The position numbers were made by a program. This document shows, one piece after another, positions 26,401 through 27,224 of a stretch of DNA of 64,000 nucleotides; position 1 is the stretch's first letter, and each line of letters starts with the position of its first letter. The stretch is from Escherichia coli (GTDB lineage Bacteria > Pseudomonadota > Gammaproteobacteria > Enterobacterales > Enterobacteriaceae). Location: NCBI RefSeq assembly GCF_048403405.1, contig NZ_CP183129.1. One strand, written 5' to 3'.

Positions 26401-27224
26401 TTCGTTACTTACGGCCCGTAAACGGGCTGCCCGGATAGGGAATCGATAACTGCTCTCCCATTTTATCCTCTTCAAGCTGGTGCTTTATGTAATCCTGTAT
26501 CTTCGCCGTGTTCTTACCCACCGTATCGACGTAGTACCCTCTGCACCAGAACTCCCTGTTCCTGTATTTGAATTTCAAATCACCAAACTGCTCGTAAAGC
26601 ATCAGACTGCTTTTCCCTTTCAGATATCCCATAAAGCCGGATACGCTCATTTTGGGCGGGATCTCCACAAGCATATGGATATGATCTGCACAGCATTCAG
26701 CTTCCAGAATCCGTACACTTTTCCACTCACACAGCTTTCTCAAAATACTGCCTATTGCTCTACGCTTCTCTCTGTAGAACACCTGTCTTCGGTATTTTGG
26801 CGCAAAAACTATGTGATATTTACAGTTCCATCGGGTGTGCGCTAAGCTCTTTTCGTTCCCCATTGGGACCCCCTTTCGATTTCTTGTTTGACACTTGCAG
26901 TTGCCAGACCGCAAGGTGTTTTAACAAATCAAAAGGGGTTTTAATAACTGGCTTAAAGCTGAAAGCTTTCCGGAACCCCCAGCCTAGCTGGGGGTTTTCT
27001 GTGCACAAAAAAGCCGACTCATCAAAGTCGGCGTCGTACGAATCAATTGTGCTATGCAGTAATTCAAAAAAGGAAGTAAGACAATATGGAGCGCAACGCC
27101 CATCGCTTGACGTTGCATTCACCTGCAAGAGAGATATTGCCCTGAATGGGTAGAGAGTTTATTGACTTCGCTCAAACTTTGCGGCGTTTTTGTATACAGA
27201 CAGCTGGGAAAATTTCTTTTGTTA

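What the first reader, a model, noticed from the sequence alone, without database searches (positions are those of the whole stretch)
27005..27175. FnrS with class II-type FNR site readable directly from sequence
The site TTGAG-CGAA-GTCAA is centred about 42 nt upstream of the inferred FnrS 5' end, the classic activating position. This gives an independent check that the sRNA call and strand are right. Already-described biology, noted for completeness.
Basis: partly seen in the sequence, partly recalled or inferred. Interest (0 to 1): 0.2.

Follow-up and report, generated by a model that had tools for sequence, protein, structure and literature searches.

The report
Known FNR-activated fnrS promoter, confirmed

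Summary
On the minus strand, TTGAGCGAAGTCAA occupies 27175..27162. Its centre is at -42.5 relative to G 27126, which aligns with the annotated 5' end of K-12 fnrS. Rfam calls FnrS at 27126..27009 (134.8 bits, threshold 60). From about -78 to +120 the promoter and sRNA are 100% identical to K-12.

The motif alone is not significant: 43 matches with up to 2 mismatches in the window, against 38 expected. Position and conservation carry the argument. In 92 of 95 distinct fnrS promoters from Enterobacterales the best FNR-like site is centred at exactly -42.5. TG (-48/-47), TCAA (-39..-36), A-12 and T-8 are invariant, while the spacer is unconserved. The -10 hexamer is therefore CAATAT at -13..-8, which gives the standard class II distance between site and -10. 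Published ChIP-seq (Myers 2013) lists an FNR peak at fnrS with the site at -42.5.

One qualification: the near-palindromic site does not itself give the strand. The -10 hexamer and the terminator do.

Verdict: already known, low interest.

Side observation: an IS200C element abuts the fnrS terminator T-run, leaving 6 T where K-12 has 8. Only 8 of 5,426 complete E. coli genomes share this arrangement. The fnr gene, with its own FNR box, lies 13 kb away.

The parts
27162..27175 (-). FNR binding site TTGAGCGAAGTCAA, spanning -49..-36 and centred at -42.5 (class II position, overlapping the -35 region)
   Evidence: Identical in K-12. Cores invariant in 92 Enterobacterales promoters. FNR ChIP-seq peak with site at -42.5 in PMC3688515.
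27134..27139 (-). -10 hexamer CAATAT (-13..-8)
   Evidence: A-12 and T-8 are invariant in 92 homologous promoters, while -7 varies. Its first base lies 29.5 nt from the site centre, the canonical class II distance. No consensus -35 is present (ATAAAC at -36..-31), and the generic sigma-70 scan finds no promoter, as expected for an activator-dependent promoter.
27126..27126 (-). FnrS transcription start (+1, G)
   Evidence: First position of the Rfam model. Aligns to the annotated K-12 fnrS 5' end, 1409129.
27005..27126 (-). fnrS small RNA gene (122 nt by the K-12 annotation; Rfam match 27009..27126)
   Evidence: RF01796, 134.8 bits vs threshold 60, E 4e-24. Identical to K-12 from +1 to +120. 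The predicted fold shows a 5' stem-loop, a single-stranded C/U-rich stretch, a middle stem-loop and a terminator.
27007..27032 (-). Intrinsic terminator of fnrS: 8-bp stem GCCGACUU/GAGUCGGC (27032..27013) followed by a T6 run (27012..27007)
   Evidence: Terminator scan, fold. K-12 has T8.
27187..27191 (-). Conserved A-run at -65..-61, upstream of the FNR site. Possibly an alpha-CTD/UP-like contact; this is inference only.
   Evidence: A at 76-93% at -64..-61 in 92 promoters aligned without gaps from +1, with unconserved neighbours; coordinates.
26295..27006 (-). Context, not part of the promoter: IS200C element (ends +/-2 nt) in the same orientation as fnrS, with its left end abutting the fnrS terminator T-run
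   Evidence: tnpA ORF and annotation in near-identical genomes. Junctions compared with K-12 and other strains. Rfam STnc490 hit at 26873..26996.

Best explanation
This is the native E. coli fnrS locus: a class II FNR-dependent sigma-70 promoter driving the 122-nt Hfq-dependent small RNA FnrS. When oxygen is absent, dimeric [4Fe-4S]-FNR binds TTGAGCGAAGTCAA, centred at -42.5. There it replaces a missing -35 element by contacting RNA polymerase (sigma region 4 and the alpha subunits). Polymerase uses the -10 hexamer CAATAT (-13..-8), starts at G 27126 and stops at the hairpin and T-run at 27032..27007. FnrS then base-pairs through its single-stranded C/U-rich stretch with ribosome-binding regions of mRNAs that are not needed anaerobically, such as sodB, cydDC, metE and iscR, and represses them. 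Shown here: the sequence elements, their geometry, identity to K-12, and deep conservation. Taken from the literature on the identical K-12 sequence: FNR occupancy, anaerobic induction and the targets. Inferred from the general class II model: the polymerase contacts.
For: Rfam FnrS hit of 134.8 bits on the minus strand. The region is 100% identical to K-12 from about -78 to +120, and the K-12 5' end maps to 27126. The site is centred at -42.5, with the -10 hexamer at the canonical 29.5-nt distance on the minus strand only. In 92 of 95 distinct Enterobacterales fnrS promoters the best FNR-like site lies at -42.5 and in 2 at -41.5. T-48, G-47, T-39, C-38, A-37, A-36, A-12 and T-8 are invariant, while the spacer from -30 to -25 carries about 0-0.1 bit per position. 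None of 22 chance hits of the search pattern outside Enterobacterales has a site of 8/10 or better near -42. Myers et al. 2013 report an FNR ChIP-seq peak upstream of fnrS with the site at -42.5, and define class II as -41.5 +/- 4 (PMC3688515). fnrS is induced 28- to 52-fold anaerobically in Dickeya and Pectobacterium (PMC3349551). PfnrS is used as an anaerobically inducible promoter in engineered E. coli Nissle (PMC7264239). FnrS represses iscR under anaerobiosis (PMC11572966). The promoter is present at 95% identity or better in 5,255 of 5,426 complete E. coli genomes.
Against: There is no direct expression or binding data for this particular strain. The motif count in the window is no higher than chance, so the argument rests on position, conservation and published work on K-12. 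The two primary papers (Durand & Storz 2010; Boysen et al. 2010) were not available to read, so their mapped 5' end is taken indirectly, through the RefSeq annotation and Myers 2013. The terminator T-run is shorter than in K-12 (6 vs 8 T) because of the adjacent IS200C. This could alter the 3' end but not the promoter.
Confidence: 0.96

Rival explanations
1. The TTGA-N6-TCAA match is a chance occurrence and the promoter is driven by something else.
For: Sites with up to 2 mismatches to the FNR consensus are as frequent in the window as in shuffled sequence (43 vs 37.8 +/- 6.3). Two exact-core sites against 1.4 expected is not significant either.
Against: The same core sits at the same distance from +1 in 92 of 95 distinct promoters across Enterobacterales, with an unconserved spacer. 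An FNR ChIP-seq peak is published for the identical K-12 sequence. No -35 element is present to support activator-independent initiation.
Confidence: 0.01
2. The site is primarily a CRP site (CRP and FNR boxes are related), so control is by carbon source rather than oxygen.
For: A review states that CRP negatively affects fnrS transcription (PMC8139620; PMC4350180). The CRP box TGTGA-N6-TCACA shares the TGA/TCA core with the FNR box.
Against: The discriminating positions are FNR-type on both halves (TTGA...TCAA, not GTGA...TCAC). In 92 homologues -49 is T in 80% and G in 1%, and -36 is A in 100%. ChIP-seq shows FNR occupancy. A CRP effect may act through competition or indirectly, but does not replace FNR activation.
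Confidence: 0.02
3. The symmetric site serves a plus-strand promoter reading into the 3' end of zntB (antisense), not fnrS.
For: The site is nearly palindromic, so it has no intrinsic direction. zntB ends 47 nt away, at 27222.
Against: At the class II distance on the plus strand the hexamer is AGACAG, and the four neighbouring registers are no better. No plus-strand RNA family or terminator fits. The minus strand has CAATAT with invariant A and T.
Confidence: 0.01

Closest known systems
E. coli K-12 MG1655 fnrS (b4699) and its promoter PfnrS
   Same: Identical sequence from about -78 to +120, covering the FNR box, -10 hexamer, +1 and the whole sRNA body. Same neighbours: zntB upstream, ynaL and dbpA downstream.
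   Different: Three substitutions further upstream, at the zntB end. The terminator T-run is 6 T instead of 8 because an IS200C element follows it directly. The Rac prophage that lies beyond ttcA in K-12 is absent here.
Other class II FNR-activated promoters (ydhY at -42.5; narG, dmsA, nirB, nrfA at -41.5)
   Same: A single FNR box overlapping the -35 region and no good -35 hexamer. The position lies within -41.5 +/- 4, the definition of a class II site in PMC3688515.
   Different: The product is a non-coding RNA rather than an operon. The site is one base further from +1 than the commonest value because the -10 hexamer lies at -13..-8. No co-activator site of the NarL/NarP type was seen.
The fnr promoter's own FNR box (autoregulation), in the same window at 40184..40197
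   Same: It has the exact TTGA-N6-TCAA core. It and the fnrS site are the only two such sites in the 64 kb.
   Different: It lies 20 nt upstream of the fnr ATG. From my own knowledge, it overlaps the start site and acts in repression, not activation. It matches the consensus better (9/10).

Membership tests
FnrS sRNA (Rfam RF01796) | Covariance-model score above the curated gathering threshold, over the full model length | tested here: met
   134.8 bits vs 60, model positions 1-119 of 119, E 4.4e-24, minus strand 27126..27009.
FnrS sRNA (Rfam RF01796) | Sequence identity and synteny with the characterised K-12 gene (zntB - fnrS - ynaL - dbpA) | tested here: met
   Identical from +1 to +120. 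Flanked by zntB (27222..28205) on one side and by ynaL and dbpA on the other, with IS200C interposed.
FnrS sRNA (Rfam RF01796) | Rho-independent terminator with a U-tail (Hfq-binding 3' end) | tested here: met
   8-bp stem with 5 G-C pairs and a T6 run. This is two T shorter than K-12.
FnrS sRNA (Rfam RF01796) | Anaerobic, FNR-dependent accumulation and Hfq-dependent repression of targets | not testable with these tools
   Published for K-12 and relatives. Not measured for this strain.
Class II FNR-activated sigma-70 promoter | Match to the FNR box TTGAT-N4-ATCAA with intact TTGA/TCAA cores | tested here: met
   TTGAGCGAAGTCAA, 8/10, cores exact.
Class II FNR-activated sigma-70 promoter | Site centred at -41.5 +/- 4 relative to the transcription start | tested here: met
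   -42.5 relative to 27126. The same value is published for fnrS, and the class II definition is quoted.
Class II FNR-activated sigma-70 promoter | A -10 hexamer at the proper distance and a poor or absent -35 hexamer | tested here: met
   CAATAT at -13..-8, starting 29.5 nt from the site centre, with A-12 and T-8 invariant. The -35 region reads ATAAAC, and the consensus promoter scan finds nothing.
Class II FNR-activated sigma-70 promoter | Evolutionary conservation of the site and its spacing | tested here: met
   92 of 95 distinct promoters at -42.5 and 2 at -41.5. Half-site cores carry 2.0 bits per position; the spacer carries about 0-0.5 bits.
Class II FNR-activated sigma-70 promoter | FNR occupancy in vivo and loss of activity without FNR | not testable with these tools
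   An FNR ChIP-seq peak is reported for the identical K-12 sequence (PMC3688515). FNR dependence is cited there to Durand & Storz 2010 and Boysen 2010, which could not be read.
CRP-dependent promoter (considered) | CRP-type discriminating bases (GTGA...TCAC) | tested here: not met
   TTGA...TCAA here. In homologues G at -49 occurs in 1% and C at -36 in 0%.

The most novel reading that the evidence does not exclude
The IS200C element sits directly against the fnrS terminator T-run, in the same orientation as fnrS, and shortens the run from 8 to 6 T. It might therefore change the FnrS 3' end and its Hfq-binding U-tail. It might also let FNR-driven read-through enter the IS, making the IS200 5' transcript or transposase oxygen-responsive in the few lineages that carry it. 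More generally, all four IS200C copies examined abut a hairpin plus T-run with the left end adjacent, which suggests targeting of intrinsic terminators.
Probability: 0.07. Interest if true: 0.35.

Novelty: already known. Interest (0 to 1): 0.1.

Why it matters
It matters little as a discovery. FnrS and its FNR-dependent promoter were described in 2010, FNR occupancy was mapped genome-wide in 2013, and PfnrS is now a standard anaerobic switch in engineered probiotic strains. The value here is as a positive control: the first-stage reader located the sRNA, strand, start site and activator site correctly from raw sequence. The comparative profile adds a small refinement. The -42.5 spacing and a -10 hexamer at -13..-8 are fixed across Enterobacterales. 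The IS200C insertion against the terminator is a minor strain-level curiosity.

Tried and rejected
1. Motif enrichment. Counting FNR-like sites in the window shows no excess over shuffles, so motif statistics alone were dropped as evidence.

2. The generic sigma-70 promoter scan finds nothing in 26300..27700. This is uninformative for an activator-dependent promoter.

3. The primary papers (Durand & Storz 2010, PMC2941437; Boysen 2010, PMC2856277) and a dRNA-seq paper (PMC4288677) are not held. The mapped 5' end is therefore taken from the RefSeq K-12 annotation and from Myers 2013.

4. The MFE of FnrS is not unusual compared with shuffles (z = -1.2), so thermodynamics alone would not have identified the sRNA. 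The covariance model and sequence identity do.

5. A plus-strand promoter using the same site was considered and rejected for lack of a -10 hexamer.

6. CRP as the cognate factor was rejected on the discriminating bases.

7. I first read the IS200C junction as an insertion inside the T-run that cripples the terminator. Comparison with other strains shows the T-run left of the IS varies (6, 7, 9 and 6 T) and that the end of the IS cannot be fixed to the base. The claim is therefore reduced to 'abuts the distal end of the T-run'.

8. H6 looked like a ninth genome with the same arrangement, but its IS200C is in dbpA. The count is 8.

9. A literature look-up for a known IS200 preference for terminators gave nothing specific.

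Full report
**What is at the coordinates.** Reading 26700..27500 shows TTGACTTCGCTCAA on the plus strand at 27162..27175. It matches the FNR consensus TTGAT-N4-ATCAA at 8 of 10 positions. Both mismatches are at the fifth base of a half-site, and both TTGA/TCAA cores are intact.

An Rfam scan of the whole window places FnrS (RF01796) on the minus strand at 27126..27009. It scores 134.8 bits against a gathering threshold of 60 and covers the full model. The annotated fnrS of K-12 MG1655 is 1409129..1409250. In a pairwise alignment its first base falls on window 27126 and its last on 27005, and the two sequences are identical from about -78 to +120. With +1 = 27126 the site spans -49..-36 and is centred at -42.5.

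**Is it more than chance?** Not as a motif. Sites with up to two mismatches occur 43 times in the window against 37.8 +/- 6.3 in shuffles. The exact core TTGA-N6-TCAA occurs twice against 1.4 expected.

What is not chance is the position. The density of sites with up to 2 mismatches gives about 0.002 for one landing within +/-1 nt of the required place. The second exact-core site (40184..40197) lies 20 nt upstream of the ATG of the fnr gene itself, so both exact-core sites sit at FNR-related genes.

**Comparative test.**
- One scan of the species-representative genome collection, using a conserved FnrS pattern, returned 120 loci.
- Of these, 98 begin GCAGGTGAA and come from Enterobacterales or unclassified proteobacterial metagenome bins. 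They give 95 distinct promoter sequences.
- The other 22 are chance hits in unrelated phyla and serve as a negative control.
- Anchored on +1 without gaps, the best FNR-like site is centred at -42.5 in 92 of the 95 promoters, at -41.5 in 2 (a Yersinia and a Photorhabdus), and elsewhere in 1.
- None of the 22 control loci has a site of 8/10 or better near -42.
- Per-column information is 2.0 bits at T-48, G-47, T-39, C-38, A-37 and A-36. It is 0.0-0.1 bit at -30..-25 and at most about 0.5 bit through -18, then rises towards the -10 hexamer.
- This is a classic phylogenetic footprint of a spaced dimeric site.

**The -10 element and the half-base offset.** In the same profile A-12 and T-8 are invariant, whereas -7 is C in 63% and T in 32%. 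The two most critical positions of a -10 hexamer (A2 and T6) therefore fall at -12 and -8. The hexamer is -13..-8, which reads CAATAT here (27139..27134). Its first base is 29.5 nt from the site centre. This is the same distance as in a textbook promoter with the site at -41.5 and the hexamer at -12..-7. The -42.5 value therefore reflects a start one base further from the hexamer, not an unusual activator geometry.

The -35 region reads ATAAAC, and a generic sigma-70 scan finds no promoter. This fits dependence on an activator.

On the plus strand, the hexamer at the equivalent distance is AGACAG, and the neighbouring registers are no better. The near-palindromic site by itself says nothing about strand. 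The -10 hexamer, the sRNA and the terminator do (8-bp stem at 27032..27013, T6 at 27012..27007).

**Literature.**
- Myers et al. [quoted passage not shown] They define class II sites as -41.5 +/- 4, and cite Durand & Storz 2010 and Boysen et al. 2010 for FNR-dependent expression.
- A 2021 review records positive control by FNR and ArcA and negative control by CRP (PMC8139620).
- fnrS is induced 28- and 52-fold anaerobically in Dickeya and Pectobacterium (PMC3349551), two genera whose promoters carry the site at -42.5 in my set.
- PfnrS is used as an anaerobic or hypoxic switch in clinical-candidate E. coli Nissle strains (PMC7264239).
- FnrS represses iscR by pairing at its ribosome-binding site (PMC11572966).
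- The two primary 2010 papers were not available.

**Mechanism.** *Shown here:* the box, its spacing, the -10 hexamer, the start, the sRNA body and the terminator, all identical to K-12 and conserved. *From the literature on that identical sequence:* FNR occupancy and anaerobic induction. *Inferred from the general class II model* (named in PMC3688515): FNR at about -41.5 contacts sigma-70 and the alpha subunits, substituting for the -35 element.

A conserved A-run at -65..-61 (27187..27191; A in 76-93% at -64..-61) lies where alpha-CTD would sit upstream of a class II activator. That reading is my inference and is untested.

**Rivals.**
- Chance: excluded by conservation and ChIP.
- CRP site: the discriminating bases are FNR-type (T, not G, at -49; A, not C, at -36), here and in the homologues.
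- Plus-strand promoter: no -10 hexamer.

**Population view.** The 86-nt promoter segment is found at 95% identity or better in 5,255 of 5,426 complete E. coli genomes, once per genome.

**Surroundings.** Directly after the fnrS T-run the window diverges from K-12. K-12 reads GGC-T8-GCCTGTTATTT. The window reads GGC-T6-GTGCACAGAAAACCCCCAGC..., and the K-12 sequence resumes at ...ATATTTATTTT-GCCTGTTATTT.

The inserted block of about 710 bp (roughly 26295..27006) is an IS200C element. Its tnpA is on the minus strand, the same orientation as fnrS. Rfam's STnc490 hit (26873..26996) is its left end.

Only 9 of 5,426 genomes cover the whole 1.3-kb query. One of them has the IS in dbpA instead, so 8 share this arrangement. 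Among them the T-run left of the IS is 6, 7, 9 and 6 T. The IS should therefore be described as abutting the distal end of the T-run, not as destroying the terminator.

Three IS200C copies at unrelated loci (rph-pyrE, upp-uraA, gnd-ugd) also have their left end against a hairpin followed by a T-run. The hairpin in the IS200 left end is described as a bidirectional terminator that protects against impinging transcription (PMC4513863). It folds strongly here. FNR-driven read-through into the IS is therefore possible but unlikely to go far.

**Verdict.** The biology is already known. Interest is low.

Noticed in passing
window 26295..27012: An IS200C element (tnpA 26405..26863, minus strand, same orientation as fnrS) abuts the fnrS terminator T-run. 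That run is 6 T here against 8 T in K-12. Only 8 of 5,426 complete E. coli genomes share this arrangement, and the T-run left of the IS varies among them (6, 7, 9, 6).
   Followed up: partly
L003:1273-1373, L004:1266-1366, L005:1280-1380 and window 26960..27060: All four IS200C copies compared (fnrS-ynaL, rph-pyrE, upp-uraA, gnd-ugd) have their left end directly against a G+C-rich hairpin followed by a T-run. This suggests insertion at intrinsic terminators. I found no statement of this in the papers searched.
   Followed up: partly
window 26873..26996 (minus strand): The Rfam STnc490 hit is on the tnpA-sense strand and begins at the left-end terminator hairpin. However, STnc490/art200 is described in PMC4513863 as antisense to the tnpA 5' UTR. 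The Rfam model appears to represent the sense-strand left end.
   Followed up: no
window 40184..40197 and 40217..40969: The fnr gene itself lies in the window, 13 kb from fnrS. An FNR box, TTGACAAATATCAA (9/10), sits 20 nt upstream of its ATG. This box and the fnrS box are the only two exact TTGA-N6-TCAA sites in the 64 kb.
   Followed up: partly
window 17826..24531: The gene order pfo/ydbK, MicC (21371..21486), ompN, uspF, ttcA is contiguous. The Rac prophage that separates ttcA from uspF in K-12 is therefore absent from this strain.
   Followed up: partly
window 22896..22935: The ompN-uspF intergenic region carries TTGATCTAAATTAA (one mismatch to the FNR box), followed immediately by a CRP-like TGTGA...ACACA palindrome. 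This fits the published description of the promoter region of the sRNA EcsR1 (PMC4350180). I did not verify it.
   Followed up: no
window 27187..27191 (minus strand, -65..-61 of PfnrS): An A-run upstream of the FNR box is conserved in position across 92 Enterobacterales fnrS promoters (A in 76-93% at -64..-61) while its neighbours vary. It may be an alpha-CTD/UP-like contact or part of the reported ArcA or CRP input.
   Followed up: no
window 33992..34087: McaS/IsrA sRNA (Rfam, 112.8 bits) is also present. Together with MicC, FnrS and the IS200 left-end RNA, the window holds four Rfam sRNA hits. fnrS is not annotated as a feature in the RefSeq records of the near-identical strains examined, only in K-12.
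   Followed up: no
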